Notes: generated by a model not told the origin, from the letters alone. Positions 10,187 through 40,243 are shown, counted from the stretch's first letter. The stretch is 52,426 nt of DNA from Candidatus Zambryskibacteria bacterium RIFCSPHIGHO2_01_FULL_46_25 (GCA_001825155.1 MHVH01000004.1:1-52426); one strand, 5' to 3'. A program made the numbers and translations.

Positions 10187-11343
10187 AAATTTTAATGATT
10201 TCAAGTGACCGCAATATCCTTACCCCAGGCAGCGCGGTTTCGGAGCGGATGAAGGAATACGGCGGTCTTGTCGAAGAGTTGCATATTGTCTTGCTTTGCG
10301 ATAGCTCGCACACAAGCTCATTGAAAATTGAAAATGGGAAATTGAAAATTGCCGAAGGCGTATACGTCTATCCGACCAATTCTTCCATGAAGATTTTGCG
10401 TCCCCTCGATGCCGCGAGAATAGGCAAGAGAATTGTTTTGAAGAACAAATTCGTACGCGGAGAATGCGTTGTCACCACCCAGGATCCGTTCGAATGTGGC
10501 TGGGCGGGTTTGAATGTTAAGAAAAAGTGGAGAATTCCTCTTGAAGTTCAGCTTCATACCAATCCATTCTCGCCATATTTTGGTGGATTTCAGAATAGAG
10601 TGCGACAGTTTTTCGCAAGAACGGTTCTTGCGAGCGCCGATAATATCCGCGTAGTGTCTGAAAATTTGAGACACAACATTGAAAATTTATTGAAAATTGA
10701 AAATTCTAAATTGAAAATTTTGCCCATTTATGTGGACAAAGACCAGATTGAGAATGGGCAAATCTCCTTCGACCTCCATGCACGCTATCCGTGGCACTTC
10801 ATACTGCTCGCCGCGTCCCGCATTACACCGGAGAAGAATCTAAGTATGGCGCTTCGCGTTCTTGCCTTGGTGCGGGAGCGGTATCCGAGTACCGGACTTG
10901 TTATCGCTGGCTCTGGTTCAGAAGAAAAAGTTTTGAAATCGCTTGTGGAAAAGCTGGGTCTCGCAGGTTTTGTAGAATTTGTCGGTTGGCAGAGCGAGTT
11001 GGCATCCTTCTATAAGACTGCCAATGCGTTTATCCAGACCAGTTTCTACGAAGGATATGGCTTGGCTCTGGTTGAGGCTGGACTCTCCGGTTTGCCGGTC
11101 GTGACAACACCTGTTGGCATCGCAACTGAGCTTGAGAACGGCAAAGACGCCTACATTTTCCCCCACGATCGTCCGGACATGTTCGCCGCCGGCATTGTAG
11201 ACCTTATAGAGAACAACGAGAAGCGGGAGAATCTAAGAGTGAATCTCAAGCACACTCTCGATGCCAGACTCCTTTCTAAGGAGGATTATATGGCTAAGAT
11301 AAGGGATAATTGGGAAAAGACAGCGCTAAAGATCAAACCATGA
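10171..11343 (+). CDS. Glycosyltransferase family 4.
   Basis: QTSFYEGYGLALVEAGLSGLPVVTTPVG signature. It carries two heptad mini-elements in-frame. Confidence 0.85.
   Translation: MEKDLKILMISSDRNILTPGSAVSERMKEYGGLVEELHIVLLCDSSHTSSLKIENGKLKIAEGVYVYPTNSSMKILRPLDAARIGKRIVLKNKFVRGECVVTTQDPFECGWAGLNVKKKWRIPLEVQLHTNPFSPYFGGFQNRVRQFFARTVLASADNIRVVSENLRHNIENLLKIENSKLKILPIYVDKDQIENGQISFDLHARYPWHFILLAASRITPEKNLSMALRVLALVRERYPSTGLVIAGSGSEEKVLKSLVEKLGLAGFVEFVGWQSELASFYKTANAFIQTSFYEGYGLALVEAGLSGLPVVTTPVGIATELENGKDAYIFPHDRPDMFAAGIVDLIENNEKRENLRVNLKHTLDARLLSKEDYMAKIRDNWEKTALKIKP
10320..10350 (+). repeat. Heptad mini-element, ATTGAAA type variant, translated as KIENGKLKI.
   Basis: ATTGAAA ATTGAAA ATGGGAA ATTGAAA ATT. 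Confidence 0.65.
10678..10721 (+). repeat. Heptad mini-element, ATTGAAA type. The core at 10689-10721 is identical to 12662-12694 and 40211-40243. Translated as KIENSKLKIL.
   Basis: attgaaaattgaaaattctaaattgaaaatttt(g) is identical over 34 nt at three loci. Confidence 0.85.
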
Positions 11344-11448
11344 AGCTTCTCATACTCACTCAGAAAGTGGCTCAACAGGACCCTATTTTGGGTTTTTTCT
11401 ACAAGAATTAAAGATATTTGGGAGGAAACCGCAGGCAAAGTGCGATAA
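11340..11448 (+). pseudogene. Remnants of glycosyltransferase paralogues. One is a 23-codon N-terminal stub resembling the 12486 gene. The other is an 11-codon C-terminal stub resembling the end of the 10171 gene.
   Basis: MKLLILTQKVAQQDPILGFFYKN* (11340-11411) resembles MKLLILTQKVAKNDPILGFFVNW at 12486, with many synonymous differences. DIWEETAGKVR* (11413-11448) resembles DNWEKTALKIKP* at 11308-11343. Confidence 0.6.
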
Positions 11449-11473
11449 TTGAACTTTATATAGTTGCCTAATT

Positions 11474-11502
11474 TTGACTAACTTTATAAAGTTTGATAAT
11501 AT
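11474..11502 (+). promoter_or_regulatory. Sigma70-like promoter upstream of the Fic gene.
   Basis: TTGACT (11474-11479), a 17-nt spacer, then TAATAT (11497-11502). Confidence 0.4.
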
Positions 11503-11533
11503 GATGATGTTGTTGAGCAAGCCGTAATCCAAT

Positions 11534-12466
11534 ATGAATACAAGGCAAAAGTTAGAGATTATTCAAAAAATGTCCGGGCTTACCCAGACCAAGCTGGCAG
11601 AGAGATTCGGCGTGTCTTTCGCCGCTTTTAATAGTTGGTGGACAGGCAGATCAACCCCTCGACCCAGGATGCTTGCTTCTATTGATGAATTTTTTTTAGA
11701 ACTGACTGGCCAGAAAGTTATTCCGGAAGATTATCTGACAGCCAAGAAACAATCTTTGAGTAAAAAATCTTCAGAACTTAAAAAAATTATTGCCGAAATT
11801 CTAGCCAACACGGATATACGCGACCAGTTTATATTGAAACTGACTTATCATAGCAATAGCATAGAGGGCAGTACGCTTACTGAGCCGGACACAGCGGCCA
11901 TTCTTTTCGACAACATCGCTCTACCTGACAAAAGTTTGATTGAGCAACTAGAGGCCAAAAATCACCAAACCGCTCTTAATTATTTGTTCGAGCACCTTTC
12001 TAAGGGGAGAAAGATAGATGAGAATCTGATTTTGAAATTGCATGGTATTTTGATGAACGGCATTCGTCCTGATGCCGGAGTCTATCGCTATCACGGCGTT
12101 AGAATTGTCGGTGTTGATCTGCCGACGGCTAACTATATGAGTATCCCCAAACTGATGTCTGAAGTTGTTTCCATTATATCCGGAAAGACCAAAGATGTGG
12201 TCGCGCTCTCGGCCGAGGTTCACGCTAAATTTGAGCAGATCCACCCCTTTTCTGATGGCAATGGTCGTGTGGGGCGCTTACTCATGAATGCCATGCTTTT
12301 AAAGGCTAATATGCCGCCGGCTATTATTCAGCAAGAGCGAAAACAGCTTTACTATAGTTATCTTTATAAAGCTCAAACCAAGGATGACCGAAGCCAGCTC
12401 GAAGATTATATTTGCGATGCGATTATGGATGGATTCAAAATTTTAGAGCGTAAGGATATTAGATAA
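11534..12466 (+). CDS. Fic family protein with an N-terminal XRE-type HTH.
   Basis: Canonical Fic motif HPFSDGNGRVGR. The N-terminus QKMSGLTQTKLAERFGVSFAAFNSWWTG is HTH-like. Confidence 0.9.
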   Translation: MNTRQKLEIIQKMSGLTQTKLAERFGVSFAAFNSWWTGRSTPRPRMLASIDEFFLELTGQKVIPEDYLTAKKQSLSKKSSELKKIIAEILANTDIRDQFILKLTYHSNSIEGSTLTEPDTAAILFDNIALPDKSLIEQLEAKNHQTALNYLFEHLSKGRKIDENLILKLHGILMNGIRPDAGVYRYHGVRIVGVDLPTANYMSIPKLMSEVVSIISGKTKDVVALSAEVHAKFEQIHPFSDGNGRVGRLLMNAMLLKANMPPAIIQQERKQLYYSYLYKAQTKDDRSQLEDYICDAIMDGFKILERKDIR

Positions 12467-12485
12467 TCATTCAGCCCGTCTCTAT

Positions 12486-13418
12486 ATGAAGTTATTAATA
12501 CTTACCCAAAAAGTGGCTAAGAATGACCCTATTTTAGGGTTTTTCGTAAATTGGATAAAAGCTTTTTCTGAGAAATTTGAAAAAATTACCGTCATCTGTT
12601 TAGAGGCCGGCGAATATGATTTACCAGGGAATGTGAAGGTCCTCTCCCTCGGTGAGGAGAAATTGAAAATTGAAAATTCTAAATTGAAAATTTTGGCGAA
12701 ACTTAAATATGCCTGGAATTTCTACAAATACATATTTAAGTTTCGCCATGATTACGACGCTGTCTTTGTTCATATGAATCAGGAGTATGTGATTCTGGGG
12801 TGGAAATTCTGGAAACTTTGGGGCAAAAAAATTTATTTATGGAGGAACCATGCTCACGGAGATTTTTTTACCAGACTCGCAATTTTGGTTTCGGATAAAG
12901 TTTTCTACACGTCTTCGCAATCTTTTACCGCGAAGTTTGGAAAGGCGGTAAGAATGCCCGCGGGCATTGATACAGACTTTTTCAAACCCGATCCGTCGGT
13001 CGCGAGAATTCCGAATTCGGTATTGTTTCTCGGTCGCATCGCACCGGTGAAAAAAGTTATGGAATTCGTCGAATGGGCTGAAACCAAAGGTTTCAGAAAA
13101 GTAACCATAGCCGGCCCTATCGGTGACAAAGAATATGGAGAGAAGGTTTTAAGCATGCTCACTCCAAACATGACATACGTCGGTCCGGTGACGCAGGCGG
13201 CGGCGCTGAAGCTCTATCAAACCCACGAAACTTATGTCAATATGACCCCTGCCGGCAGTTTTGACAAGACTATTTTAGAAGTCGCCGCCTGCGGGACGCG
13301 GGTTAAGGTTGAGAACAATGATTTGAAATTTATGGAAGGTAAAACGGACGCAGAACTAAGAGATTTTGTTGTGGAGAATCATAGTCTGAAAAAGCTTGCA
13401 GATAAACTTGCAGTATGA
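12486..13418 (+). CDS. Glycosyltransferase, GT-B/GT4-like.
   Basis: The locus context supports it, as does a C-terminal half with GRIAPVKK and a Rossmann-like pattern. It carries the 34-nt heptad element in-frame. Confidence 0.65.
   Translation: MKLLILTQKVAKNDPILGFFVNWIKAFSEKFEKITVICLEAGEYDLPGNVKVLSLGEEKLKIENSKLKILAKLKYAWNFYKYIFKFRHDYDAVFVHMNQEYVILGWKFWKLWGKKIYLWRNHAHGDFFTRLAILVSDKVFYTSSQSFTAKFGKAVRMPAGIDTDFFKPDPSVARIPNSVLFLGRIAPVKKVMEFVEWAETKGFRKVTIAGPIGDKEYGEKVLSMLTPNMTYVGPVTQAAALKLYQTHETYVNMTPAGSFDKTILEVAACGTRVKVENNDLKFMEGKTDAELRDFVVENHSLKKLADKLAV
12662..12694 (+). repeat. Heptad mini-element, ATTGAAA type, identical copy, translated as KIENSKLKIL.
   Basis: Identical to 10689-10721 and 40211-40243. 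Confidence 0.85.
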
Positions 13419-14386
13419 TGGAAGCTAAAGCAGTCTCTTATGAAGAAGTTGTCAAGGATATTGGAGAATTTCCCGGTCTGGCTTACGCCCGTGAATTTTT
13501 GTGCTTTCAGGAAAAACACTACTCCTTAAAAAATATATTTTTGAAAATTACCAATGATGGCATTCCAACAGCCATCATTGCAGTTAATTTGAAGAGCAAT
13601 GAGGCATTTTCCGTATATAAAGACTATGCGCACTTGTTTTTTCTTGACACACGGCAGAAAGATTTTAATTGGCTTACCTTGGCCAACGTGGTTAAGAAGA
13701 AAATAGGAGCTTCTTATTTTGAACTACAGTTTGCGCAGTTCGAGGGAACTCCTTCTCATGACGGCTTAGTGCCGTCGCCTCTATCAATTTTCGTTTTATC
13801 GCTCAACAATGAAAAGACGGAAGCTGATCTTCTCAATCTATTTGATAAGAAAACTCGCAACGAAATACGAAAATCTAAAAGATATGGTTTTGAGGTAAAA
13901 ATGATTAGAATTGACATGCTAGATGATATTTATGCCTTGTATATAGAAAATATGAAAAGGCATGGTACGCCGCCGAAACCCATGGGTTATTTTGAAGATC
14001 TGTTTCATTGCTTTGGTGAAAAGTGCAAGTGTTTAGGGGTTTTATCGAACGGCGAACTTGTCGGGCTTAATATTTTCCAAGTTAATAAAGATTATCTTCG
14101 ATTAATTTTTAATTTATCTAAAGTTAAGTTCTGGAATGCTTGCGTGAACAACCTTCTCTATTATGAGACCATTGAGTGGGCTGCGTTGAATGGTGTGAAA
14201 ATTATTGATTTTGGGCCCAGTCTAAATAATGACCACGGACATAATCGATTTAAGCTTGGGTTTGGAGCGAAAAGAATGCCAATCTTTTCTGTCGTCGACG
14301 CCGGAGTAGTATTTCGTTTTAGGAAATGGATAAGACAGAAATGGTATAATCTGCGACTTCGATATGCCAAGACTTTTAATGTATAA
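13415..14386 (+). CDS. FemAB/BioF2-like GNAT-fold acyl- or aminoacyl-transferase.
   Basis: Its length and the central KKTRNEIRKSKRYGFEV segment are typical of FemAB-family proteins. This is recalled from memory and not searched. Confidence 0.55.
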   Translation: MMEAKAVSYEEVVKDIGEFPGLAYAREFLCFQEKHYSLKNIFLKITNDGIPTAIIAVNLKSNEAFSVYKDYAHLFFLDTRQKDFNWLTLANVVKKKIGASYFELQFAQFEGTPSHDGLVPSPLSIFVLSLNNEKTEADLLNLFDKKTRNEIRKSKRYGFEVKMIRIDMLDDIYALYIENMKRHGTPPKPMGYFEDLFHCFGEKCKCLGVLSNGELVGLNIFQVNKDYLRLIFNLSKVKFWNACVNNLLYYETIEWAALNGVKIIDFGPSLNNDHGHNRFKLGFGAKRMPIFSVVDAGVVFRFRKWIRQKWYNLRLRYAKTFNV

Positions 14387-14402
14387 ATAGACTGCAAAAA
14401 AG

Positions 14403-15146
14403 ATGTTCCGATACCTCAAATCGTTACCGCGCGTTCTCTACATATATCTTAAGGACAAGTTAATTCTAAAAAAGCGCGTGGCAATATTAATGTACCATTC
14501 AGTTTCGGATGACAATAATGAATTTTTCACGGTAAGTTCTAAAAATTTCATGAGTCAGATGAATTATTTGTATGAAAATAATTACGTAATATTATCTTTA
14601 CACGACCTAATAGAATATATAAATAGTAAGAAAAAAATACCTAAAAAAAGCGTAGTTTTGACCCTTGATGATGGATATGAAGATAATTATCTGACAGTTT
14701 TTCCGATGCTAAAAAAGTATAATTTCCCAGCCACTATTTTCCTCATCACGGGTCTGGTCGGCAATAAAAATTATTCCAATAGAGGTATTAAACTGCCAAT
14801 GTTGGACTGGGGTCAGATACAAGAAATGCATTCCTCTGGACTCATAGATTTTCAACCGCATACAGTTTCTCATCCACGGCTCTCCATCTCATTGCCAAAC
14901 GAAGTTATATATGAGATGGAGGATTCAAAGAAAGAAATCGAGAGAAGGCTTGGCAAAAAGTGCACTCTCTTTGCTTATCCAAAAGGGGACTATAATATAA
15001 GTACTATAGAAATAGCCGGTCGAATTTTCGATGGCGCAGTCACTACAGATATGGGCTTTACAAATTTCAGAAGTAGCCTATTATCTTTGAGGAGAAATTC
15101 CGTGCACTCTCAAACAGACAGCCTTACATTCAAATTAAAGATATGA
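14403..15146 (+). CDS. Polysaccharide deacetylase, NodB homology domain.
   Basis: LTLDDGYEDNY (Asp-Asp metal motif) and HTVSHPRL (His motif). Confidence 0.85.
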   Translation: MFRYLKSLPRVLYIYLKDKLILKKRVAILMYHSVSDDNNEFFTVSSKNFMSQMNYLYENNYVILSLHDLIEYINSKKKIPKKSVVLTLDDGYEDNYLTVFPMLKKYNFPATIFLITGLVGNKNYSNRGIKLPMLDWGQIQEMHSSGLIDFQPHTVSHPRLSISLPNEVIYEMEDSKKEIERRLGKKCTLFAYPKGDYNISTIEIAGRIFDGAVTTDMGFTNFRSSLLSLRRNSVHSQTDSLTFKLKI

Positions 15147-16246
15147 AAATTTGCATTCTTACACAGACATTTAACCCTCGGGCGGGTGCGGGGGTCTTCA
15201 CCAGTAATATTGTTGATGGGGTCATGCGTGACAGACCGGGTGTTGAGTTCTCCATCATTACCGGTGAGGATTATATTAAACCAAGCGTCCATAAAATCTT
15301 GAAGAACTGGTTCTATATTAGGAATAAGATAAGAGAAGCCGACCTCGTGCACGCAATAGATGGATATCCGTATGGAGTTATAGCCTGTCTTGCCAACATT
15401 GGAATATCAAAATCTGTCGTCATAACGACTATCGGTTCCGGGTCCATTAGGAAACTTGGTAGTTTTGGTTGGAGGCCATGTTTGCTAAGATGGGCTTATA
15501 GACGAGCAACTCGAGTCACGGCTATTAGCCAATACGTTGCGGGAGAGATAAAAAAAGTTTTACCCAGGCTCTCCATCAAGGTGATTAATCCCGGCGTTGA
15601 TTATGATTTTTATGCCGGGAAAAGTAATAAAGATGGTTCGGATATCTATACTGGATTTGAGTACATAATCACACAGGGGGAGTTTAAGAGACGTAAGGGA
15701 TACACCGAGATATTACCTATAGTGAAGAAAATAATGGATGTTTACCCCGAGATCAGATATATTATCGTGGCTGACGCTAGAGATAACCGACCGTATCAAA
15801 AGGAACTCTATGCATTGATGGATAAATTAGGAATTCGTAGCAAGGTCATAATAAAAAGTGGTTTGAGCCAAGAAGAACTCCGAGAAGTTTATCGAAATGC
15901 TATTCTTTATCTGACTCTACCGGTCAATATTGATGGTGATATCGAGGGCTTCGGTATGGCTATTACGGAAGCGGCTGCCACTGGTACGCCGGCTATTGTA
16001 GGCAAGGGGAGCGGTGCTGATGATGCTGTTTCAGATGGGCAAAGTGGGTTTCTGGTAGACGGGGAGGACGAAGAACAGGTAGTGGAAAAAATTCTATCAA
16101 TCGTCGATAATAAGCAGCTGCGTGAAAGACTCTCAAATGGGGCAAAAAAGTGGGCGAGTGAGAATAGTTGGGAGAATAAGGTAAAACAGTATATAGATTT
16201 ATATGAAAAAAATATTAATACCCATATTTCACGGCCATATTGCTAG
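15143..16246 (+). CDS. Glycosyltransferase family 4.
   Basis: EGFGMAITEAAATGTPAIVGKGSGADDAV signature, with an ATGA overlap with the upstream gene. Confidence 0.85.
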   Translation: MKICILTQTFNPRAGAGVFTSNIVDGVMRDRPGVEFSIITGEDYIKPSVHKILKNWFYIRNKIREADLVHAIDGYPYGVIACLANIGISKSVVITTIGSGSIRKLGSFGWRPCLLRWAYRRATRVTAISQYVAGEIKKVLPRLSIKVINPGVDYDFYAGKSNKDGSDIYTGFEYIITQGEFKRRKGYTEILPIVKKIMDVYPEIRYIIVADARDNRPYQKELYALMDKLGIRSKVIIKSGLSQEELREVYRNAILYLTLPVNIDGDIEGFGMAITEAAATGTPAIVGKGSGADDAVSDGQSGFLVDGEDEEQVVEKILSIVDNKQLRERLSNGAKKWASENSWENKVKQYIDLYEKNINTHISRPYC

Positions 16247-17549: not shown

Positions 17550-17554
17550 ATATC

Positions 17555-18619: not shown

Positions 18620-18656
18620 TGTTTACCTTTTAGGCCAAATTCTGTAAAGTACAGGT

Positions 18657-20529: not shown

Positions 20530-20530
20530 A

Positions 20531-22320: not shown

Positions 22321-22322
22321 TT

Positions 22323-29033: not shown

Positions 29034-29075
29034 GTATTACTGCTATGATAGGATAGTATCCATACAAAGTAAAAG

Positions 29076-32778: not shown

Positions 32779-33719
32779 TTAATGACCGAAAAATGTCAAA
32801 ATTTGTTCGAGTAATTATCTCAGTTATTTTATTAGTCATTCTCTTTAAACTTATAGATTGGTCTATTTTCTTAGAACAGATAGCAAGAGTTAGCTTGTTA
32901 CCGGCGATAATAACTATCCCTCTATTTTTTCTGGGAGTATTTTTTTCGGTTCTACGGTGGCGATTAATTTTGGATTTTCTTGGTATTCATATTTCAAAAA
33001 AAGTGGCGTTCAGGCTATATCTTGAAGGATCATTTTTGAATAATTTCATACCAACATCTGTTGGGGGAGATATATATAAATATTTTATCCTTTCTCGACT
33101 TCAACCGCTTAAAAAAAAGGAGGCTTTTGTGTCACTGTTTTTTGAAAGGGGAGCTGGCCTCCTTACTTTTTTTGTCCTAAATTTACTGCTTAGCATATTT
33201 TTCTATCGATTGATTTTTGAGCATAAGGCTTTATTTTTATTCGAAGTCTTAATTTTTATTGTTTTTTTAGCTTTTTTGTTCTTTTTATTTTCTATTCACA
33301 ACAGTCTAAAGATAGGCAGAATAATAAAAAAATATATAGATAAATTCGAGTTCTCATCGATTCCATTGAATTGGGTAAACAAAGTTTGGGTTCTGCCTGC
33401 TGTAATATATTCTGTATTTTTTACTATCGTTATTGTTGCGATTCGCTTTAGTTACTTGTTGGCCCTTGGCGCTTCTTTCCCTATAATGCATTTGCTATTT
33501 TTTACGACTATCATTCAATTGGCGGGGGTATTACCCGTATCATTAAATTCGATAGGAATATCGGAGGGGCTGATTGTTTTTCTGTATAGTCTTGTTGGAA
33601 TATCTCCAGAGATTGCATTTGCTGTGGCGATTCTAGAGCGGTTTATAATGATAGTTGCAAGCAGTGTGGGCGCAACAACTTTCCATAAGAAATATAGGCA
33701 TGACCTCCATGTATCTTAA
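32775..33719 (+). CDS. Flippase-like membrane protein, lysylphosphatidylglycerol-synthase TM-region / UPF0104-like.
   Basis: A polytopic protein with the NNFIPTSVGGDIYK segment that I recall as characteristic of this family. Confidence 0.55.
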   Translation: MINDRKMSKFVRVIISVILLVILFKLIDWSIFLEQIARVSLLPAIITIPLFFLGVFFSVLRWRLILDFLGIHISKKVAFRLYLEGSFLNNFIPTSVGGDIYKYFILSRLQPLKKKEAFVSLFFERGAGLLTFFVLNLLLSIFFYRLIFEHKALFLFEVLIFIVFLAFLFFLFSIHNSLKIGRIIKKYIDKFEFSSIPLNWVNKVWVLPAVIYSVFFTIVIVAIRFSYLLALGASFPIMHLLFFTTIIQLAGVLPVSLNSIGISEGLIVFLYSLVGISPEIAFAVAILERFIMIVASSVGATTFHKKYRHDLHVS

Positions 33720-34593
33720 AGAAAAAATAAAGGATCTTCTTCCCGCGCCTGTATTTCGACTTGCAAAGAAAATTTGGGTTTATTTTTTCATGAATCCAAA
33801 CAGTCTGATTATGAAAATATGGCTAGTTAATTTTAGGCAGCCAGAATTTGTACCCATCTGTTTCAATGGGTATAGTTTCGATATTTTGATTGATCCCAAG
33901 AACGGCCGTGTTGATAACTTTATTTTTATCAATAGAGTTTGGGACGAAATGATCTCTGATGTGCTTTTGGATAATCTTTATCCGGGAGGAACGTTTATAG
34001 ATGTGGGGGCAAATATCGGATATTTCTCACTTCTTGCTTCAAGGCTCGTTGGGGGTAATGGAACTGTGCAAGCATTCGAACCGGTTAAACAATTATCTAC
34101 GCAGTTTTCAACGAGCATAAGAAAAAATAATTTTGACAATATTTATTTACACCGATATGCGTGTGGTTCAGAGACTAGAGAAATGGATATTATGGTAAAT
34201 AAACAGAACGTTGGCGGCTCGAGTTTGATTGAGGCAAAGAATCCGCTCGGATCTATACATGAGCGCATTCAGATTAGAAAAATGGACGATATGCTTAAAA
34301 ATATACAGCACATAGATATGATAAAAATCGATGTGGAAGGTTATGAATTTGAAGTTTTGAAAGGGGCTGAAAATTTAATAAAAAAACATAAGCCAAAGAT
34401 TATATTTGAGTTTAATCCTGTAATTTACGAGGCAAGTCTCACTGGCTCCTCGCTCCAGTTGCTTAAATTTCTTACTGAACACCACTATGTGATTCAAACC
34501 TTGAGAGGGGAACTGTTGTTTGAAAAAGATTTTCCAAAGCTTATCGAGCGTCTGAAACGTTCAAACCGTCAAATTGATCTTTTTTGCAAATGA
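33700..34593 (+). CDS. FkbM-family methyltransferase.
   Basis: FIDVGANIGYFSL and IKIDVEGYEFEVLKGA motifs. The start is set at an internal ATG. Confidence 0.8.
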   Translation: MTSMYLKEKIKDLLPAPVFRLAKKIWVYFFMNPNSLIMKIWLVNFRQPEFVPICFNGYSFDILIDPKNGRVDNFIFINRVWDEMISDVLLDNLYPGGTFIDVGANIGYFSLLASRLVGGNGTVQAFEPVKQLSTQFSTSIRKNNFDNIYLHRYACGSETREMDIMVNKQNVGGSSLIEAKNPLGSIHERIQIRKMDDMLKNIQHIDMIKIDVEGYEFEVLKGAENLIKKHKPKIIFEFNPVIYEASLTGSSLQLLKFLTEHHYVIQTLRGELLFEKDFPKLIERLKRSNRQIDLFCK

Positions 34594-34623
34594 TGGTTGT
34601 ATATAAGAGAAAATAATAATATC

Positions 34624-34851
34624 ATGTCGCCAGATACCGATACTTTCTTTAAGCGAACGAAGCGGCTTTTTTTCGACAAAAAGTTTTTACACTATCTTTG
34701 GACAAGTATTTTCATCTCGGTTCTCAATATTGTTTTCCTATACGTCTTTATTGACATCTTAGGTATCCCTACAATTATCTCAAGTACGGCAGTCATCGGC
34801 AGCACCTTTATTATCCGATACATCCTCTTCGATTTCTTTAAAGTGCTCTGA
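34624..34851 (+). CDS. GtrA-like small membrane protein, short form.
   Basis: Two hydrophobic helices plus the FLHYLWTSIFISVLNIVFLYVF pattern. It sits next to a GtrB/ArnC-like GT2 gene. Confidence 0.5.
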   Translation: MSPDTDTFFKRTKRLFFDKKFLHYLWTSIFISVLNIVFLYVFIDILGIPTIISSTAVIGSTFIIRYILFDFFKVL

Positions 34852-34897
34852 GATTTGAATATCGTAGCTTCCATTGTAATTGGCGCTAAAACGTGAT

Positions 34898-35854
34898 ATG
34901 GTTGCATTTATGGAAAAAGGTTCAAGGTTACAGCTGTCTATCGTCATTCCGGCTTACAATGAAGCGGAATCCGTGGCGAAACTTCATGCCGAGCTTCTCC
35001 AAGTGCTTAATTCCCTTGGTAAAAGTTTTGAGATCATTTTTATTAACGATGGCTCAACCGATGCTACGCTCTCGGAGCTCAAGAAGCTTAAGCCGATTCG
35101 CATCATCTCTTTTTCAAGAAATTTTGGTAAATCACAGGCCTTGCAAGCCGGGTTTAGTGCGTCGAGAGGGGAACACATCTTTACCATGGACAGTGATTTG
35201 CAGGATGACCCCGCAGAGTTACCTAATTTTCTAAAGAAGATGGAGGAGAGTGGCGTCGAACTTGTCTGCGGTTGGAAAAAAAATCGCTCGGACAGCTTTA
35301 TGAAGCGCTTAGTTTCCAAGGTAGCCAACGGTCTGACTGGATTTTTTACTGGTACTAAAGTTCATGATATGAATTGTGGTTTTAAGCTTTATTGTAAGGA
35401 GGTGGTTAAGAACCTGAATCTCTATGGTGATATGCATCGCTATATACCAGCGCTTGTCGCGACTCAAGGATTCAAAATAGCCGAAATTCAGATTAATCAT
35501 AGGGAAAGAAAATTCGGGATTTCTAAATATGGCAATTTTCGCCGCTTTTCGAAAAGCTTTTTTGATTTTGTCACTCTTATCCTTATGCGACGCTTCATCG
35601 ATAGACCGATGCATTTTTTCGGTATAATAGGCATGATTTCCGCGTTTTGCGGAATGGTCATTCTTGCTTATCAGGCTTATATAAAAATATTTAAAGGGGT
35701 GCTTATTGGCAATCACCCCATCCTTCTTCTTGGCGTGCTCTTGGTGGTAATCGGAGTTCAGCTCTTTTCTTCCGGCTTTTTGGGTGAACTAGTTATTCGG
35801 CAAGGCCAGAGACAGGCTCTCTACACTATCCGTGAAGAAACCGAACGATCATAA
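34898..35854 (+). CDS. GT2 polyprenyl-phosphate glycosyltransferase, ArnC/Dpm1/GtrB-like.
   Basis: IVIPAYNEAESV, MDSDLQDDP and C-terminal TM helices. It is a paralogue of the 30701 gene. Confidence 0.85.
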   Translation: MVAFMEKGSRLQLSIVIPAYNEAESVAKLHAELLQVLNSLGKSFEIIFINDGSTDATLSELKKLKPIRIISFSRNFGKSQALQAGFSASRGEHIFTMDSDLQDDPAELPNFLKKMEESGVELVCGWKKNRSDSFMKRLVSKVANGLTGFFTGTKVHDMNCGFKLYCKEVVKNLNLYGDMHRYIPALVATQGFKIAEIQINHRERKFGISKYGNFRRFSKSFFDFVTLILMRRFIDRPMHFFGIIGMISAFCGMVILAYQAYIKIFKGVLIGNHPILLLGVLLVVIGVQLFSSGFLGELVIRQGQRQALYTIREETERS

Positions 35855-37475
35855 AAGTAATCAGTTTCTTGAGGTTGCGCTTGAACAGATTCCCAGATTG
35901 CTCGGCCAGCTCAATCGCAATCCATCTTCGCTTTCATATGGCTCATTTGACCGCGCCTACTGGCATTATCGCACAAACGATATTAGCTGTGCGCGATATC
36001 AGGAAGCCGTCTTAACTCTTGCTTATCTTTATTCCAATTTATTTGAAGGGAACATATATTATAAGGATGGCAATATTTTAAATTATATACGAGCGGCACT
36101 TTCCTTCTCCATCTCTATTCAAAATAAAGATGGCTCCTTTAATGAATGGTATCTCAATGAGGGATCGTTCGTGGCCACATCTTTTATAACGGCAGCTTTG
36201 GCGCGCACTCTTCTTATTTTAGATAAATCTGACATTTCTAATTATGCCGATTGCATATTGATGCTCAAACGTTCAGCTGATTGGTTGAGGAAAAGGGACG
36301 AGACGCTCGTTTATAATCAATTTGCTGGGGCTGCCACGGCTTCGGTTCTCGTGTATAAACTCACTGGCGACGAGTCATATAAAACTTCTGCAAAAGAGAA
36401 AATTGACACTATTATTAATAAACAAAACGATGAGGGATGGTGGAATGAATATGGTGGCCCTGATATCGGCTATTTATCCTTGATGATAGATTATCTTATG
36501 AAATACTATGAAATCATTAATGATGAAAGAGTAGTAGAAGCTGTCAAAAAGGCTGAGGCATTTATTGTAAATTTTCTACATCCAAATTTTACTGCAGGCG
36601 GTGAATATATGTCTCGTAATACGGAGTATCTCATTCCTTCCGGTTTCGTTTTCTCTTCGCGTTATGACCCAAACGGTTTAATATTGTCTAATTTTACAGT
36701 AGCATCACTCGAACTTAAGGCCGGAGTTCAACCAGAGAATCTCGATGATCGATATCTGTGCTACATACTCTATAATTGGATTGAAGCCGGACTGAATTTC
36801 AATGAGAATAAGCCTTTTGAGAGTACCGCCAAATATTTATGGTTTCGCCGCATGAGAAAATTCTTTAAGGAGTCCGGTTTATTTGTTTTTCAAAATGACA
36901 AATATTATTTTGTAGCTAACCTAAAAAAGGGTGGGGTATTTAGGATTTACACATCAGTAGGTTATACCTATCTTGACTCAGGTATTGAGGTGGCGTCCGC
37001 TGGAAAATCGTATATTTCCAATATATTGAATCCAAACAGCATTTTTTTTGCAAACGAGAACTCATTATCGACAAGGGGTACTGTTCATATGATCAAAGAA
37101 CCTCTTATGAAAACATCCACAATGATTTTTTTTAAAATCTTCCAACTCTTGTTTGGTAACATAGGATGGATACAACGGTTAATTAAAAAAATCTTAAGAA
37201 AAAAAATGATTGTTTATCAATCTAAACAAAATTTACGTTTTGCGCGGTTATTCGAACTTAAACCGGATTCCATAATAGTGAAAGACCTCGTGTATGGTAT
37301 TGTTCCGGAAGCCAATGTTAAAGTAGGTACAAAGTCCTCATACACATTTATTCCAAGTTCTAAGTATTTCACTGCGCAAGAATTAGCACATGGTAGGCTT
37401 GAACCAAAGGAAGAACGGAATTACGATAATAAATTAGCATTACTAACGTTAAATCGTTTCTGGGATAATATGTAA
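35832..37475 (+). CDS. Hypothetical 547-aa protein, possibly an alpha/alpha-toroid fold.
   Basis: Repeated DGSFNEWY and DEGWWNEYGG type motifs. The start is GTG, overlapping the upstream gene. No confident family could be assigned. Confidence 0.5.
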   Translation: MKKPNDHKSNQFLEVALEQIPRLLGQLNRNPSSLSYGSFDRAYWHYRTNDISCARYQEAVLTLAYLYSNLFEGNIYYKDGNILNYIRAALSFSISIQNKDGSFNEWYLNEGSFVATSFITAALARTLLILDKSDISNYADCILMLKRSADWLRKRDETLVYNQFAGAATASVLVYKLTGDESYKTSAKEKIDTIINKQNDEGWWNEYGGPDIGYLSLMIDYLMKYYEIINDERVVEAVKKAEAFIVNFLHPNFTAGGEYMSRNTEYLIPSGFVFSSRYDPNGLILSNFTVASLELKAGVQPENLDDRYLCYILYNWIEAGLNFNENKPFESTAKYLWFRRMRKFFKESGLFVFQNDKYYFVANLKKGGVFRIYTSVGYTYLDSGIEVASAGKSYISNILNPNSIFFANENSLSTRGTVHMIKEPLMKTSTMIFFKIFQLLFGNIGWIQRLIKKILRKKMIVYQSKQNLRFARLFELKPDSIIVKDLVYGIVPEANVKVGTKSSYTFIPSSKYFTAQELAHGRLEPKEERNYDNKLALLTLNRFWDNM

Positions 37476-37505
37476 CCTGCATGAATAAACAAACCCTATC
37501 GATAT

Positions 37506-38150
37506 ATGGACCAGAGAGTAAAAAAGAGGTTTAATAACGTGGCGTCTTCCAAGACGTTCCGCAATATCTGCCGCAAGTTCTCGCTAGTGGGAAAGTCAGT
37601 GCTTGATATTGGCTGCTCCAATGGAGAGTTCTTAGTCCATTTCGGTCAAGACAGCATAGGGCTGACAGTTCTAGAGGAAGAAGTAAGCGCGGGGCAGGAA
37701 GCTGGCCTTGATGTAAGGCTGGCAAATGTCGAGGATGATAATTTTTCTCTGGATTGCAAATTCGATGTAATCTTTGCCAATAACATCTTCGAGCATCTTC
37801 AGTCACCGCACAACTTTCTCATCAGAATAAAAGAGTTTCTAAAGCCTGGAGGCCTTCTGATTCTTGGCGTACCCTGCATCCCTTACCTGACTCCATTGGT
37901 TCGTTTAAAAAAATTCAGAGGATCTCTGGCTTCGCTCCATATAAACTTTTTTACCCGCTCAAGTCTAATTAAGACTGTTCAGTATGCCGGCTGGGATGTT
38001 CACGAAGCTAGGGGATTCCGCTTTAGAAATGCCGTGCTTGATTATCTGCTGAATCCAATATATCCTCACTTTTACGTTATAGCTTGCGCTAATCCCGACT
38101 TCCGCTACTCAGCCAAGCGTGTAAAGGAGTTGGAAGGGTATAATAGATAA
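37506..38150 (+). CDS. Class I SAM-dependent methyltransferase.
   Basis: VLDIGCSNGEF motif I and LKPGGLLILGVP. Confidence 0.75.
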   Translation: MDQRVKKRFNNVASSKTFRNICRKFSLVGKSVLDIGCSNGEFLVHFGQDSIGLTVLEEEVSAGQEAGLDVRLANVEDDNFSLDCKFDVIFANNIFEHLQSPHNFLIRIKEFLKPGGLLILGVPCIPYLTPLVRLKKFRGSLASLHINFFTRSSLIKTVQYAGWDVHEARGFRFRNAVLDYLLNPIYPHFYVIACANPDFRYSAKRVKELEGYNR

Positions 38151-38159
38151 ATCAAATTT

Positions 38160-40211
38160 ATGATTAAAGATATTTTTAAAAAAACAATATTTGTAGGGCT
38201 GTTTCTGGTGCCCTTCATACCGTTTCTCGTCTTCTCGTCGTTTTTCTTCCCCTATATCACGACCAAGGCGTTTACTTGGAGAATCATTGTTGAGGTGGTA
38301 TTCGCCGCATGGCTTATCCTGGCAGTCTGGGAGCCGGAGTACAGGCCCAAAAAATCCATTCTTCTATACTCAGTGTTTACCTTTCTTGCAGTTATCGGGT
38401 TGGCGGACCTTTTCGGCGTTGATCGCTCCGCGAGCTTCTGGAGCAATTTCGAGCGTATGGAGGGATACATTTCGCTTCTTCATCTTGGCGCGTTCTTCCT
38501 CGTAATCAGTTCGGTCTTCAAAGAGGAACACTGGAAGAGCTGGTGGAATACTTCTCTTGTTGCCTCAGCCATTATGGGTGGCTACGCCTTTATGCAAATT
38601 ATCGGCGCGATGTCGCCTTCGCAGGGAGGGGTGCGCGTCGACGGTACCTTCGGCAACGCCATATATCTCGCGGTCTATATGCTCATACACATTTTCATCG
38701 CGCTCTTCTACATGCTCCGCGGCTGGAAGAATAGAAATCTCAGGTGGACATACGGTATTCTTGTCCTTTTTCAAATATTTATCATCTACTACACCGCGAC
38801 CAGAGGCGCAATTCTCGGCCTTTTGGGTGGACTCTTCATCGTGGCGCTTATAAATGTGATGAATAAGGAAGACACGGCGGTAAGGAAAGCAAGCATGGCC
38901 CTCATCGCGGCAATTGTTGTATTGATTGGAGGTTTTTTCCTCGCCAAGAACACGACCTTCGTATCCCAAAGTCCCGTTCTCTCTCGCTTCTCGACACTTA
39001 CCTTGGCGGAGATAAAGAATCAAGGCCGTTATTATGTTTGGCCGATTGCGCTTGAAGGTTTCAAGGAGAAGCCGATATTGGGCTGGGGGCAGGAGAACTT
39101 CGGTTACGTGTTCCAGAAGCACTACAAGCCGGAAATGTATCGCCTCGAGCCCTGGTTCGACCGCGCGCACAACATCTTTCTCGACTGGGCCGTTGTCGGC
39201 GGTATTCTTGGCCTTCTCTCGTATCTTGGGCTCTACGCGGCATTCTTATACATAGTGTGGCGCAGGGAAGATAATTTTACTTTTTCCGAGAAGTCGGTAC
39301 TTACCGGGCTTTTGGCCGCTTACTTCTTCCACAATTTTTTCGTCTTCGACCATCTTACAAGTTATGTGCTCTTCTTCTCCCTTCTTGCGTATCTTCAGTC
39401 TAGAGTCCCGGGACAGGTTGTATCGGCAAAAATTATTTCGGATTCGAAAATAAAAAAGATTGCTCTTCCGGCCGTGGCGCTTGTTCTGGCGTTCTCCTTG
39501 AGTTACATAAATTTCAAACCTCTGCTTGCCAATGTTTATCTGATAGAAGCGTTGAAGTCTATCCAGCTTAGCGATTCAGCGAAAGCGTCCGGATATTTCG
39601 AGAAAGCATACAAGACATCAAAGCTCGGGCGGCTTGAAGTCATGGAGCATATGGCAAACAACATCTCATCCATATTCTCAGGCAATCTTTCGAGTGAAGA
39701 AAAGGGCGCCTTCTACGCGTTCTCGAGCAATGCCGCGAAGGCGCAAGCCGAATTTTATACGAACTCAGCCCGTACCCAGCTTATGGCCGGCTCATTCTTC
39801 TCCGACATTGGTCTGCCTAACGAGGCGAGGCCGTACTTTGAGCGGGCAAGGGAGCTCTCTCCGGGCAAGCAACAGGCCTACTTCGAGCTCGGGGCCATAA
39901 GGATTAATTTGGGAGACCCGGTTGGGGCACAAGAGTTTTTCAAAGAGGCATATGAGCTGTCGCCGGATTACGTTGAAGCAAGGATAATTTACTTTATTGG
40001 GGCTATATATACTGGCGACAGGGGGCTTGAGAGGGAGCTTGCCGCTCAGATTCCTGAGAAACAGAGAATTTTTGATGACAGAGTCGTCTCGGCGCTATTT
40101 ACCAACAAAAGATTTTCCGAATTGATTGCGTTGTTCGAACGTAGGAAAGAGCTCGACCCGCAAAACTCCGCGACATATGACGATTACATCCGCCAAATCA
40201 GAAGTCAGTAA
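38160..40211 (+). CDS. O-antigen ligase / Wzy_C-family membrane protein with a C-terminal TPR domain.
   Basis: The protein is polytopic. The FDRAHNIFLDWAVVGGILG loop is typical of the Wzy_C family. The C-terminus has TPR-like repeats (YFERARELSPGKQQAYFELG, FFKEAYELSPDY). Confidence 0.8.
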   Translation: MIKDIFKKTIFVGLFLVPFIPFLVFSSFFFPYITTKAFTWRIIVEVVFAAWLILAVWEPEYRPKKSILLYSVFTFLAVIGLADLFGVDRSASFWSNFERMEGYISLLHLGAFFLVISSVFKEEHWKSWWNTSLVASAIMGGYAFMQIIGAMSPSQGGVRVDGTFGNAIYLAVYMLIHIFIALFYMLRGWKNRNLRWTYGILVLFQIFIIYYTATRGAILGLLGGLFIVALINVMNKEDTAVRKASMALIAAIVVLIGGFFLAKNTTFVSQSPVLSRFSTLTLAEIKNQGRYYVWPIALEGFKEKPILGWGQENFGYVFQKHYKPEMYRLEPWFDRAHNIFLDWAVVGGILGLLSYLGLYAAFLYIVWRREDNFTFSEKSVLTGLLAAYFFHNFFVFDHLTSYVLFFSLLAYLQSRVPGQVVSAKIISDSKIKKIALPAVALVLAFSLSYINFKPLLANVYLIEALKSIQLSDSAKASGYFEKAYKTSKLGRLEVMEHMANNISSIFSGNLSSEEKGAFYAFSSNAAKAQAEFYTNSARTQLMAGSFFSDIGLPNEARPYFERARELSPGKQQAYFELGAIRINLGDPVGAQEFFKEAYELSPDYVEARIIYFIGAIYTGDRGLERELAAQIPEKQRIFDDRVVSALFTNKRFSELIALFERRKELDPQNSATYDDYIRQIRSQ

Positions 40212-40243
40212 TTGAAAATTGAAAATTCTAAATTGAAAATTTT
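40211..40243 (+). repeat. Heptad mini-element, ATTGAAA type, identical copy. It is intergenic and abuts the TAA stop of the 38160 gene.
   Basis: Identical to 10689-10721 and 12662-12694. Confidence 0.85.

What the first reader, a model, noticed from the sequence alone, without database searches (positions are those of the whole stretch)
10689..40243. A 34-nt AT-rich heptad element, identical at three loci: twice in-frame inside glycosyltransferases and once intergenic
The string attgaaaattgaaaattctaaattgaaaattttg occurs identically at 10689-10722, 12662-12695 and 40211-40244. A close variant lies at 10320-10350.

Its internal structure is ATTGAAA ATTGAAA ATTCTAA ATTGAAA ATT, with a 7-nt period and a deviating third unit. 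In the two coding copies it is read in the same frame as KIENSKLKIL, within otherwise unrelated parts of two different glycosyltransferase genes. The third copy starts on the last base of a TAA stop.

The surrounding genes have clearly diverged; compare the synonymous differences between the 11340 stub and the 12486 gene. Perfect identity over 34 nt against that background argues for recent spread or conversion rather than shared ancestry. The element has no terminal inverted repeats, no obvious hairpin and no linked transposase, so it does not fit REP, MITE or CRISPR models.
Basis: seen in the sequence. Interest (0 to 1): 0.75.

Follow-up and report, generated by a model that had tools for sequence, protein, structure and literature searches.

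The report
Tiny heptad-repeat insert copied into genes
The 34-base string is a stop-codon-free version of a roughly 31-base block of seven-base repeats that has been copied, letter for letter, into about 30 unrelated places, mostly inside genes, in ultra-small groundwater bacteria, adding the same ten amino acids to many proteins.

Summary
The 34-mer is exact at 10689, 12662 and 40211, and a 28/31 variant lies at 10320. The window comes from a Candidatus Azambacteria (Patescibacteria/CPR) genome.

The string is one of about 14 period-7 arrays in the window, each roughly 31-35 nt. Its odd third unit (TCT, or GGG at 10320) falls exactly where a perfect (ATTGAAA)n would put an in-frame TGA. Every coding array in the window deviates at its would-be stop in the same way.

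The exact 31-nt core occurs in 68 metagenome contigs, in 38 flank contexts (about 30 unrelated sites). Its ends are sharp. It mostly reads LKIENSKLKI inside LepA, RecR, RecG, TsaD, glycosyltransferases and others.

Orthologues carry it patchily at the same loops with different junctions. The same slots can instead hold reverse arrays, arrays of other units, or nested hairpin inserts.

Codon identity is 98% inside the element against 47% at conserved residues beside it. The identity is therefore at DNA level, not peptide level. No copy is polymorphic within the population.

Best reading: a very small, non-autonomous dispersed repeat of the heptanucleotide (STRR/LSSR) kind, spread by copy or conversion. 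Only stop-free copies at tolerant loops survive. The mechanism is inferred, not shown.

The parts
10689..10722 (+). Copy 1 of the 34-mer. It lies in GT4 gene 10171-11343 and encodes LKIENSKLKIL (aa 174-184): the end of helix 164-174, a loop, and strand 181-183.
   Evidence: the same site is filled in orthologues L175, L170, L148, L172, L142, L177, L150, L191
10678..10688 (+). Out-of-phase partial unit ATTGAAAATTT directly upstream of copy 1. It gives the '(E)NL' extension, and its AAATTT junction recurs upstream of the element in several unrelated genes.
   Evidence: (family D6)
12662..12695 (+). Copy 2 of the 34-mer, in glycosyltransferase-like gene 12486-13418, at the loop LSLGEE-[KLKIENSKLKILA]-KLKY. 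Most orthologues have 3-4 residues there.
40211..40244 (+). Copy 3 of the 34-mer. It abuts and shares bases with the TAA stop of the Wzy/TPR gene 38160-40211, in the same frame. The arrangement is the same in L156 and L158.
10320..10351 (+). GGG variant of the same array (SLKIENGKLKIA), forming part of a beta-hairpin in the N-terminal domain. The closest relative has GGA at the same site, so this copy was inherited vertically.
47544..47578 (-). Reverse-oriented, diverged copy that keeps the AATTCTAAATT core (about 86% complementary to the element). It lies at the 3' end of obg and is read as IKNLKFRISNLKF.
   Evidence: (I1-I3)
47581..47595 (+). Two further TGAAAAT units spanning the obg stop and the gatB start (MKIEN...).
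8051..8082 (+). Heptad array with unit CTAGCAC in the C-terminal tail of the TraG/VirD4-like gene. Its third unit deviates (TAG to AAG) exactly at the would-be in-frame stop.
8675..8701 (+). Heptad/14-mer array (GAATCCT/AAATCCA) in GT4 gene 8121-9233.
8829..8874 (+). Heptad array (AAAGTTT type) in GT4 gene 8121-9233, encoding KSLNFKVKSLKLENK.
49868..49899 (+). Intergenic heptad array (AAATCCT) with a deviating third unit. It forms an inverted pair with 49939-49957.
   Evidence: I23
49922..49957 (+). Intergenic arrays (ATTTGTA, then TTTAGGA, the reverse complement of AAATCCT).
50457..50487 (+). Heptad/14-mer array AATTTCC/AATTTAC, 31 nt.
51634..51664 (+). Heptad array CAATTTA with one deviating unit, 31 nt.

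Best explanation
The 34-mer is a coding-compatible variant of a discrete heptanucleotide array of about 31-32 nt: (A)ATT(GAAAATT)4 with one GAA spacer changed to CTA. It belongs to a large population of period-7 arrays in Patescibacteria genomes.

Shown:
- It behaves as a unit with sharp ends. The unit sits, letter for letter, at about 30 unrelated genomic sites in many species.
- In the + orientation only one reading frame is open, and only because TCT replaces the TGA of a perfect array. That frame gives LKIENSKLKI, which is what nearly all coding copies encode.
- Copies sit at helix-end/loop/strand positions or surface hairpins of proteins. They often replace a native segment of similar length.
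- The same protein 'slots' in orthologues hold this array, its reverse complement, arrays of other units, or nothing.

Inferred:
- Arrays are copied between loci without any element-encoded enzyme. The likely route is short-patch ectopic recombination, template switching or gene conversion, seeded by the AT-rich microhomology that arrays and AT-rich codons provide.
- Selection then keeps only copies that are stop-free, in frame and structurally tolerated.
- Arrays decay by point mutation and nested insertion and are sometimes overwritten. This would explain pristine and degenerate copies lying side by side.
- The three identical copies in the window reflect this within-lineage homogenisation to the lineage's own TCT 'dialect'. 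In this clade the copied unit includes the extra 3' TTG.

No cellular function is required. The element acts as selfish or neutral DNA that adds 10-11-residue modules to proteins.
For: - Exact triple occurrence, none expected by chance.
- In the window, period 7 gives 8-10 arrays against 0-1 for any other non-multiple lag from 3 to 21; lag 14, its multiple, picks up the same arrays. In 567 kb of related contigs it gives 149 against at most 9 for lags 4-12.
- Non-ascertained arrays cluster at 31-36 nt.
- The exact TCT 31-mer occurs in 68 metagenome contigs. These fall into 38 flank contexts with no conserved flank beyond -1 = A.
- Forty-seven of the 68 metagenome copies lie in an open stretch of at least 100 codons in the single open + frame. 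Host proteins, assigned by reading conserved motifs rather than by a family search, include LepA, RecR, RecG, TsaD, a MurC-like ligase, YchF and ribosomal protein L22.
- Among glycosyltransferase orthologues the distribution is patchy and has three junction types at one site.
- At the copy-2 slot, independent junctions occur, plus a perfect reverse array.
- The same slot holds other heptad arrays, (AAAAGCT)n and (AGAAGCA)n, in L179 and L181.
- GC-rich hairpin inserts are nested inside arrays.
- Codon identity is 98% in the element against 47% at conserved flank residues. In the peptide-only sample, 4 of 5 carry the exact 31-mer and the fifth has one synonymous change.
- The closest relative shares both junctions of copy 1 but has TGG instead of TCT.
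- All coding arrays in the window deviate exactly at their would-be in-frame stops.
- Perfect arrays are never forward-coding, whereas sense variants are.
- Escape variants differ by lineage.
- An AF2 model (pLDDT 95) places the peptides in regular secondary structure.
- Short-patch integration of ectopic single strands at microhomologies is a documented bacterial mutation mechanism (bioRxiv 10.1101/2023.11.22.568220, seen).
Against: - No copying event was caught in the act. All copies are fixed in relatives at >=94% identity.
- No empty/filled pair of closely related sequences was available, so the exact insert length and any target change remain undefined.
- Most DNA copies were found by an exact-match search, which biases towards perfect copies. 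Only five were sampled independently of their DNA.
- The conservation of copy 3 is unremarkable, because its downstream intergenic neighbourhood is itself about 90% conserved.
- Short-patch recombination does not obviously explain the uniform 31-32 nt size, the strict 7-nt period across many different unit sequences, or clean +33-nt insertions such as in LepA.
- DNA-level purifying selection on a functional motif would also give perfect identity.
Confidence: 0.55

Rival explanations
1. The array is a functional DNA motif kept identical by purifying selection or molecular drive. Candidates are a DNA-uptake signal for the competence machinery these bacteria depend on, a binding array for a nucleoid or RHH-type protein, or an internal promoter. 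It spreads among orthologues by homologous recombination of preferentially acquired fragments.
For: - Perfect nucleotide conservation against 55-74% identical flanks.
- Replacement rather than insertion at several sites, as expected for uptake-sequence drive.
- Presence in both orientations and in many species of the same habitats.
- Every copy carries a sigma-70-like TTGAAA-17-GAAAAT match, 9 of 12.
- Uptake sequences in coding regions are known to sit in tolerant frames and loops (general knowledge of Neisseria DUS and Pasteurellaceae USS).
Against: - Arrays of at least 25 different unit sequences share the same size and period in the related contigs, and 87 in the species-genome loci. One sequence-specific reader cannot explain that.
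- Many degenerate copies exist.
- Density is low for an uptake signal, at about 3 exact copies in 52 kb.
- Three different junction types at one orthologous site argue against simple homologous spread.
- The promoter match is an unavoidable property of the repeat itself.
Confidence: 0.2
2. These are ordinary microsatellite dynamics. Each array arose in place by replication slippage of a local 7-mer, and the same stop-escape change was fixed independently.
For: - Heptanucleotide repeats are the commonest long simple-sequence repeats in many bacteria, and a polymerase-slippage origin has been proposed (Mrazek et al. 2007, as summarised in PMC4679880).
- Perfect (ATTGAAA)4.4 arrays occur in many phyla.
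- Unit sequences differ between arrays.
Against: - TGA to TCT needs two substitutions, yet the identical irregular 31-mer is found in 38 flank contexts, about 30 unrelated sites.
- A shared out-of-phase 5' extension (AAATTT) recurs in unrelated genes.
- The three window copies also share a further 3' TTG.
- One-step escape variants (TGG, GGA, TTA, TGT) dominate elsewhere.
- No length polymorphism was seen within the population.
Confidence: 0.1
3. The arrays are contingency loci. Gain or loss of a 7-nt unit inside glycosyltransferase genes switches surface-glycan genes on and off.
For: - Arrays sit in several glycosyltransferase genes of a polysaccharide cluster.
- A 7-nt unit is not a multiple of three, so a unit change would shift the frame.
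- Phase-variable glycosyltransferases are well known in other bacteria (general knowledge).
Against: - At most two perfect units are contiguous.
- No length variants occur among population members from several samples.
- The same element sits in housekeeping genes such as LepA, RecR, RecG and TsaD.
Confidence: 0.04
4. Selection acts on the peptide LKIENSKLKI as a useful protein module, or the segment is simply ancestral coding sequence inherited vertically.
For: - The same peptide occurs at the same positions in orthologues.
- It forms regular helix-end/loop/strand structure.
- Site 1 shows normal vertical descent, GGG against GGA in the nearest relative.
Against: - Synonymous sites are frozen: 98% codon identity against 47% in the flanks.
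- One copy is non-coding.
- Reverse-strand copies encode an unrelated peptide, NFQFRIFNFQ.
- The distribution on the orthologue tree is patchy.
Confidence: 0.06

Closest known systems
Heptanucleotide long simple-sequence repeats, including cyanobacterial STRR sequences and the TAACTGA repeats of Beggiatoaceae, Cyanobacteria and Bacteroidetes (Mrazek et al. 2007; MacGregor 2015, PMC4679880)
   Same: - Tandem 7-nt units in short arrays.
- Many arrays per genome with different units, often mixed side by side.
- Scattered phylogenetic distribution.
- No known mechanism or function.
   Different: - Here most copies lie inside genes and are translated.
- Array size is narrow, about 31-36 nt.
- One irregular array is dispersed as an exact copy across unrelated sites and species.
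- The hosts are Patescibacteria. No paper in the searched library combined Patescibacteria or Candidate Phyla Radiation with heptamer or heptanucleotide repeats.
Small dispersed repeats (SDR, 21-27 nt) of Nostoc and relatives (Elhai et al. 2008, Genome Res 18:1484; recalled from memory, paper not held)
   Same: - Very small repeats (under 40 nt), apparently mobile, with no coding capacity.
- Associated with tandem heptamer arrays, with nested insertions.
- The GC-rich hairpin inserts inside arrays and the window's 23-27-nt palindrome family look like direct analogues.
   Different: - The 34-mer itself has no hairpin, whereas SDR4-6 share a conserved fold.
- SDRs were described in cyanobacteria, not in Patescibacteria.
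Rickettsia palindromic elements (RPE; Ogata et al. 2000; mentioned in PMC1779305 and PMC10969869)
   Same: Non-autonomous repeats inserted in frame into many unrelated protein-coding genes, including housekeeping genes, at positions the fold tolerates, adding a peptide segment.
   Different: - RPEs are 100-150 bp and palindromic.
- This element is 31-34 nt, non-palindromic and built of heptads.
- It often replaces native residues rather than only adding to them.
DNA uptake sequences (Neisseria DUS, Pasteurellaceae USS)
   Same: - An exact short motif conserved across species.
- Found in coding regions in tolerated frames, and in both orientations.
- Accumulates by replacement rather than insertion.
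   Different: - Much lower density here.
- Many unrelated unit sequences share the same architecture.
- No uptake data exist.
[quoted passage not shown]
   Same: Ectopic single strands replace short genomic patches using microhomologies, without dedicated element-encoded enzymes.
   Different: SPDIR products are rare and vary in size and sequence. It is offered here only as a candidate mechanism, not as a demonstrated one.

Membership tests
Heptanucleotide tandem repeats (LSSR / STRR type) | Head-to-tail repeats with a 7-nt unit | tested here: met
   TRF gives period 7 and 4.4-4.7 copies. In lag autocorrelation only lag 7 and its multiple 14 stand out.
Heptanucleotide tandem repeats (LSSR / STRR type) | Many such arrays per genome, with period 7 in excess over other periods | tested here: met
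   About 14 arrays in the 52-kb window. In related contigs, 149 arrays at lag 7 against at most 9 at lags 4-12.
Heptanucleotide tandem repeats (LSSR / STRR type) | Canonical STRR units (CCCCAGT, TTGGTCA, CAACAGT) in heterocystous cyanobacteria, mostly intergenic (from memory) | tested here: not met
   The unit is ATTGAAA. The host is Candidatus Azambacteria. Most copies are inside ORFs.
MITE | Terminal inverted repeats and target-site duplication | tested here: not met
   No inverted arms within or around the element. No repeated flank across 38 contexts.
REP / REPIN | Imperfect palindrome forming a stable hairpin; associated RAYT transposase | tested here: not met
   MFE -2.1 kcal/mol, z = 0.18. 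No such gene among the window ORFs scanned. The rest of the genome was not available.
CRISPR array | Identical repeats at regular spacing, separated by unique spacers of similar length | tested here: not met
   Copies are 1973 and 27549 nt apart and lie inside genes.
Selfish in-frame inserts of the RPE type | The same repeat inserted in frame in many unrelated protein-coding genes | tested here: met
   Forty-seven of the 68 metagenome copies lie in an open stretch of at least 100 codons in the LKIENSKLKI frame, in proteins read by their motifs as LepA, RecR, RecG, TsaD and others.
Selfish in-frame inserts of the RPE type | 100-150-bp palindromic consensus, genus Rickettsia | tested here: not met
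   31-34 nt with no palindrome, in Patescibacteria.
Cyanobacterial SDR elements | 21-27 nt with a conserved predicted hairpin supported by compensatory changes (from memory) | tested here: not met
   No fold for the 34-mer. The separate palindrome family in the window does fold (-9.8 kcal/mol, z = -5.6).
Cyanobacterial SDR elements | Found embedded within tandem heptamer arrays, with nested insertions | tested here: inconclusive
   GC-rich hairpin inserts do sit inside arrays in L205 and L206. Those are different sequences from the finding.
DNA uptake sequence | One motif at about one copy per kb on both strands, with biased uptake of DNA carrying it | not testable with these tools
   The density seen is about 3 exact copies per 52 kb. 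No whole genome or uptake assay was available.
Phase-variable contingency SSR | Unit-number polymorphism within populations that switches the reading frame | tested here: not met
   All cluster members at >=94% identity carry identical arrays.

The most novel reading that the evidence does not exclude
Patescibacteria harbour an undescribed class of ultra-small (31-34 nt), structure-less, non-autonomous mobile repeats built of 4.4 heptanucleotide units.

These repeats copy themselves into coding sequence within a genome, and possibly between genomes. They recurrently overwrite the same helix-loop-strand slots of proteins.

They have evolved lineage-specific stop-escape dialects at one codon (TCT, TGG, TGT, TTA, GGA). 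Those dialects mark copying lineages and make the long-unexplained origin of bacterial heptamer repeats traceable.
Probability: 0.4. Interest if true: 0.75.

Novelty: new variant of a known kind. Interest (0 to 1): 0.6.

Why it matters
Heptanucleotide repeats have been known in bacteria since about 1990, but their origin and function remain unexplained.

Here the arrays lie in coding sequence, which adds two things:
- A built-in marker. The codon that replaces the in-frame stop distinguishes copying from independent slippage.
- A selective filter. It shows which protein positions accept a 10-residue module.

If the copying interpretation holds, three things follow:
- It would be among the smallest dispersed elements known.
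- It would be a steady source of small protein insertions and replacements in the streamlined genomes of ultra-small bacteria.
- It would offer a practical way to test whether heptamer arrays spread by short-patch recombination of taken-up or ectopic DNA.

There is also a practical warning. These arrays can mimic conserved peptide motifs in alignments of CPR proteins.

Tried and rejected
- Hairpin or RNA structure: the element folds no better than shuffles. Rfam gave nothing at the gathering threshold beyond the 16S rRNA end and a tRNA, and only sub-threshold chance-level hits around copy 3.
- Promoter: every copy gives a 9/12 sigma-70 match, but this is intrinsic to the repeat and cannot be tested here.
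- Linked enzymes: none found in the window.
- Phage origin: only 10 hits in 2.9 million viral contigs. Not pursued.
- Peptide-level selection: rejected by the codon-identity test.
- Assembly artefact: rejected, because identical proteins occur on many independent contigs.
- Population polymorphism or empty sites among close relatives: none found.
- Early misreading, corrected: several metagenome copies seemed to lie in 3' UTRs before terminator hairpins. The ORF analysis corrected this; they are inside genes.
- Whether the insertion of copy 3 created the stop codon: this cannot be decided. Removing 33 nt restores an ORF ending SQLLQ*, but orthologues end natively at the same place.
- Conservation of copy 3: not informative, because the adjacent intergenic DNA is about 90% conserved.
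- Run-length analysis of perfect repeats gave no clean size peak. A first array detector was too strict and was replaced.
- The third protein search, with the Wzy C-terminal half, returned only 6 hits.
- Elhai et al. 2008 could not be read and is cited from memory.

Full report
**1. Observation.** The 34-mer ATTGAAAATTGAAAATTCTAAATTGAAAATTTTG is exact at 10689-10722, 12662-12695 and 40211-40244 on the + strand. None is expected in shuffles. A variant at 10320-10350 matches 28 of the 31 core bases, with TCT replaced by GGG. The 7-nt period is confirmed.

Copies 1 and 2 lie in two different genes: 10171-11343, a GT4 glycosyltransferase by Pfam, and 12486-13418, which has only weak, sub-threshold GT1-type matches but whose orthologues often carry GT family 1 domains. 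Both are read in the same frame as LKIENSKLKIL. Copy 3 starts on the last base of the TAA stop of a Wzy/TPR gene and is in that same frame relative to the ORF. The element has no significant fold (z = 0.18) and no inverted arms. The 30 window ORFs scanned with Pfam hold no transposase, reverse transcriptase or integrase.

The window carries a 16S rRNA 3' end, a tRNA-Ile, a long polysaccharide and glycosyltransferase cluster, secA, obg and gatB. Its proteins cluster with a Candidatus Azambacteria record. They occur identically on up to 27 contigs, the longest 81 kb, so this is not an assembly artefact.

**2. Anatomy and the odd third unit.** A perfect (ATTGAAA)n contains TGA, and because 7 and 3 are coprime that TGA falls in every reading frame once per 21 nt. 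In the frame used by the genes, the perfect array would read LKIEN*KLKI. TCT (or GGG at 10320) sits exactly on that codon.

The same holds for every other coding array in the window. In the CTAGCAC array the change is TAG to AAG. The GAATCCT, AAAGTTT and AATTTAA arrays also deviate at their would-be stops. With TCT, only one + frame is open; on the reverse strand two frames are open.

In a scan of one genome per species, perfect arrays were never forward-coding. Sense variants were: 9 forward, 8 reverse, 21 outside long ORFs.

**3. The element is not alone.** Lag-7 autocorrelation finds 8-10 arrays in the window, against 0-1 for any other non-multiple lag from 3 to 21; lag 14 picks up the same arrays. 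The units differ: ATTGAAA, CTAGCAC, AAATCCT, AAAGTTT, AATTTAC/AATTTCC, CAATTTA. The lengths cluster at 31-35 nt.

A reverse-oriented, diverged copy that keeps the AATTCTAAATT core lies at the end of obg (I1-I3).

In 567 kb of related contigs, period 7 gives 149 arrays against at most 9 for lags 4-12. The non-ascertained arrays peak at 31-36 nt and are mostly of AATTnnn type.

**4. Outside the window.**
Hits included Bacteroidota, Patescibacteria, Cyanobacteria, Acidobacteriota and Planctomycetota.
- Of 155 matches, 111 were the perfect array, and total length was modally 31-32 nt, that is (A)ATT(GAAAATT)4.
- Variants were mostly one-step changes of TGA. TCT occurred only in two Zambryskibacteria, TGT in Saccharibacteria, Paceibacterota and Nealsonbacteria, TGG in Shapirobacteria and Niyogibacteria, and TTA in Levybacteria and Staskawiczbacteria.
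- *Metagenomes.* The exact TCT 31-mer occurs in 68 contigs, one copy each. They fall into 38 flank contexts, about 30 non-orthologous sites. No flank position is conserved except -1 = A in 23 of 38. Seven contexts (8 counting the near-match in L121) share an out-of-phase AAATTT 5' extension.
- *Viral contigs.* Only 10 hits.

**5. Coding context.** Forty-seven of the 68 metagenome copies lie in an open stretch of at least 100 codons in the LKIENSKLKI frame. Some lie in reverse frames that read NFQFRIFNFQ.

Host proteins were assigned by reading conserved motifs in the translations, not by a family search. They include LepA, RecR, RecG, TsaD (two different sites), a MurC-like ligase, YchF, Fpg, the C-terminus of ribosomal protein L22, an O-antigen ligase and several transferases. 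Several hosts carry further heptad-derived segments.

**6. Orthologous sites.**
- *Gene 10171, 120 orthologues at 60-72% identity.* Site 1 is an 11-residue insertion, SLKIEN[G/S]KLKI, present in about 13. At site 2 about 10 have LKIENSKLKI in place of a native segment of 9-10 residues. These are scattered over a neighbour-joining tree and show three different junction contexts.
- *Other arrays at the same slot.* In other orthologues site 2 holds (AAAAGCT)n in L179 and (AGAAGCA)n in L181.
- *Gene 12486, 120 orthologues.* The loop LSLGKE-x-SK..Y usually has 3-4 residues. In others it carries KLKIEN[S/W]KLKI, the reverse array (NFQFSIFNFQ, a perfect (AATTTTC)4 in L194), or 7-residue palindromic hairpin inserts. 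The window and L189/L190 have different junctions at this slot, so these are independent events. A second slot (EKV-[LKIENSKLKI]-NYVGPV) is filled in four other orthologues (P0165, P0166, P0191, P0251).
- *Nested inserts.* GC-rich hairpin inserts interrupt arrays in L205 and L206.

**7. DNA-level identity, not peptide-level.** Flanks of the site-2 copies are 53-84% identical, mostly 55-74%. At conserved amino acids in the flanks, codon identity is 47% (565 of 1204). Inside the element it is 98% (441 of 450).

Half of those sequences were found through their DNA, so I also sampled five orthologues chosen only by peptide. Four had the exact 31-mer and one had a single synonymous change. Peptide selection therefore cannot explain the identity.

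**8. Age and descent.** All array copies are fixed among cluster members at >=94% identity.

The nearest relative of the 10171 gene (L205, 71% amino-acid identity) has GGA where the window has GGG at site 1. That is ordinary vertical descent. At site 2 it shares both junctions with copy 1 but carries TGG instead of TCT, plus a nested insert. A swap of the escape codon at an orthologous array fits conversion to the lineage's own variant. The three window copies also share a 3' TTG beyond the 31-mer.

Copy 3 is shared with L156 and L158. The coding DNA upstream is about 62% identical, but the intergenic DNA downstream is about 90% identical. That conserved stretch includes a perfect DnaA box at 40255-40263. 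The conservation of copy 3 is therefore not informative on its own. Orthologous proteins end natively at the same place, so the element sits at or after the native stop.

**9. Structure.** An AlphaFold2 model of the 10171 protein (pLDDT 95) places site 1 in a beta-hairpin (strands 57-61 and 64-68). It places site 2 at the end of helix 164-174, a loop, and strand 181-183 leading into LPIYVD. The peptide fills a standard Rossmann helix-loop-strand position. RecR, TsaD and the second slot of the 12486 family show the same placement when their sequences are compared by eye with native segments recalled from memory; no alignment was run for this.

**10. Explanation.** The best-supported reading is a discrete, non-autonomous dispersed repeat of the heptanucleotide kind. 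It is copied or converted between loci and filtered by selection for stop-free, in-frame, structurally tolerated copies. Decay and overwriting then produce the mix of pristine and degenerate arrays.

The copying step is inferred. Short-patch integration of ectopic single strands at microhomologies is a documented candidate. It does not explain the fixed period and size.

Rivals:
- A selected DNA motif, such as an uptake signal, binding array or promoter. It remains viable at about 0.2.
- Independent slippage. Disfavoured by the recurrence of a two-step irregular variant with sharp ends.
- Phase variation. Disfavoured by the absence of polymorphism and by the housekeeping hosts.
- Peptide selection or pure ancestry. 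Refuted as general explanations.

**11. Comparison with known systems.**
- It meets the structural definition of heptanucleotide LSSR/STRR repeats. Mrazek et al. 2007 and MacGregor 2015 are summarised.
- It behaves like Rickettsia palindromic elements in inserting in frame into unrelated genes.
- It parallels the cyanobacterial association of small dispersed repeats with heptamer arrays. That comparison rests on Elhai et al. 2008, which I recall from memory because the paper is not held.
- It fails the defining features of MITE, REP and CRISPR.
- No paper in the searched library combined Patescibacteria or Candidate Phyla Radiation with heptamer or heptanucleotide repeats.

**12. Verdict.** I rate it a new variant of a known kind, with interest 0.6.

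Noticed in passing
window 43071-43097, 43288-43312, 43762-43787, 47966-47989, 47994-48016, 48644-48669: A second family of tiny repeats: a 23-27-nt perfect palindrome, (C)ACTTGGAAACT[C/G/T]AGTTTCCAAGT(G). It forms a strong hairpin (-9.8 kcal/mol, z = -5.6). Three copies lie inside gatB, read as LGNSVSK or LETEFPSG depending on orientation; one lies in ORF 43111-43776; two are intergenic.
   Followed up: partly
window 11340-12485: A Fic/HTH gene (11534-12466) plus a 20-codon stub (11340-11400, MKLLILTQKVAQQDPILGFF) sits between the two glycosyltransferase genes. The stub duplicates the N-terminus of the 12486 gene. In about 10 related contigs the two genes abut or overlap directly, so this looks like an inserted cassette with a duplicated junction.
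   Followed up: partly
window 40245-40400 (DnaA box at 40255-40263): The intergenic DNA downstream of copy 3 is about 90% identical to L156 and L158, while the coding DNA upstream is only about 62% identical. It contains a perfect DnaA box, TTATCCACA. It may be a conserved regulatory or RNA region ahead of a 23-codon, very basic ORF (about 40412-40483). Rfam gave no convincing match.
   Followed up: partly
L001-L120 (species-representative genomes): Perfect (ATTGAAA)4.4 arrays, modally 31-32 nt long, occur in very distant and even GC-rich phyla (Bacteroidota, Acidobacteriota, Planctomycetota, Nitrospirota, Cyanobacteria). They are often next to arrays of other heptamers. The narrow size across phyla is unexplained.
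   Followed up: partly
L205 about 3090-3220 and L206 about 350-500: GC-rich inserts of 34 and 72 nt that form hairpins are nested inside AT-rich heptad arrays of glycosyltransferase orthologues and are translated in frame (for example ASPRRSIGEGQGN).
   Followed up: partly
L125 about 2050-2080; L148 about 2920-2950: 21-nt palindromes occupy the same protein loop as window copy 2, as in-frame 7-residue inserts: GTCAAACAC-TCG-GTGTTTGAC and GTCCAAAGC-CGA-GCTTTGGAC.
   Followed up: no
window 973-1731: A LAGLIDADG homing-endonuclease ORF lies between the 16S rRNA 3' end (1-379) and tRNA-Ile (2892-2965). A 26-nt inverted repeat lies at 1030-1055 and 1649-1674.
   Followed up: no
window 48233-48255: An 11-nt tandem repeat (CAAATCCCAAA) in gatB lies in the segment encoding KSQNPNSKSQTNPK. 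Compared from memory with Bacillus subtilis GatB, this looks like an insertion; no alignment was run.
   Followed up: no
window 49868-49886 / 49939-49957: Two heptad arrays of complementary units, (AAATCCT)n and (AGGATTT)n, form a 19-nt inverted pair 52 nt apart in the intergenic region after the signal-peptidase gene.
   Followed up: no
window 51565-52379: Long direct repeats with a period of 294-330 nt (72-82% identical). They suggest a repetitive protein gene that runs off the end of the window.
   Followed up: no
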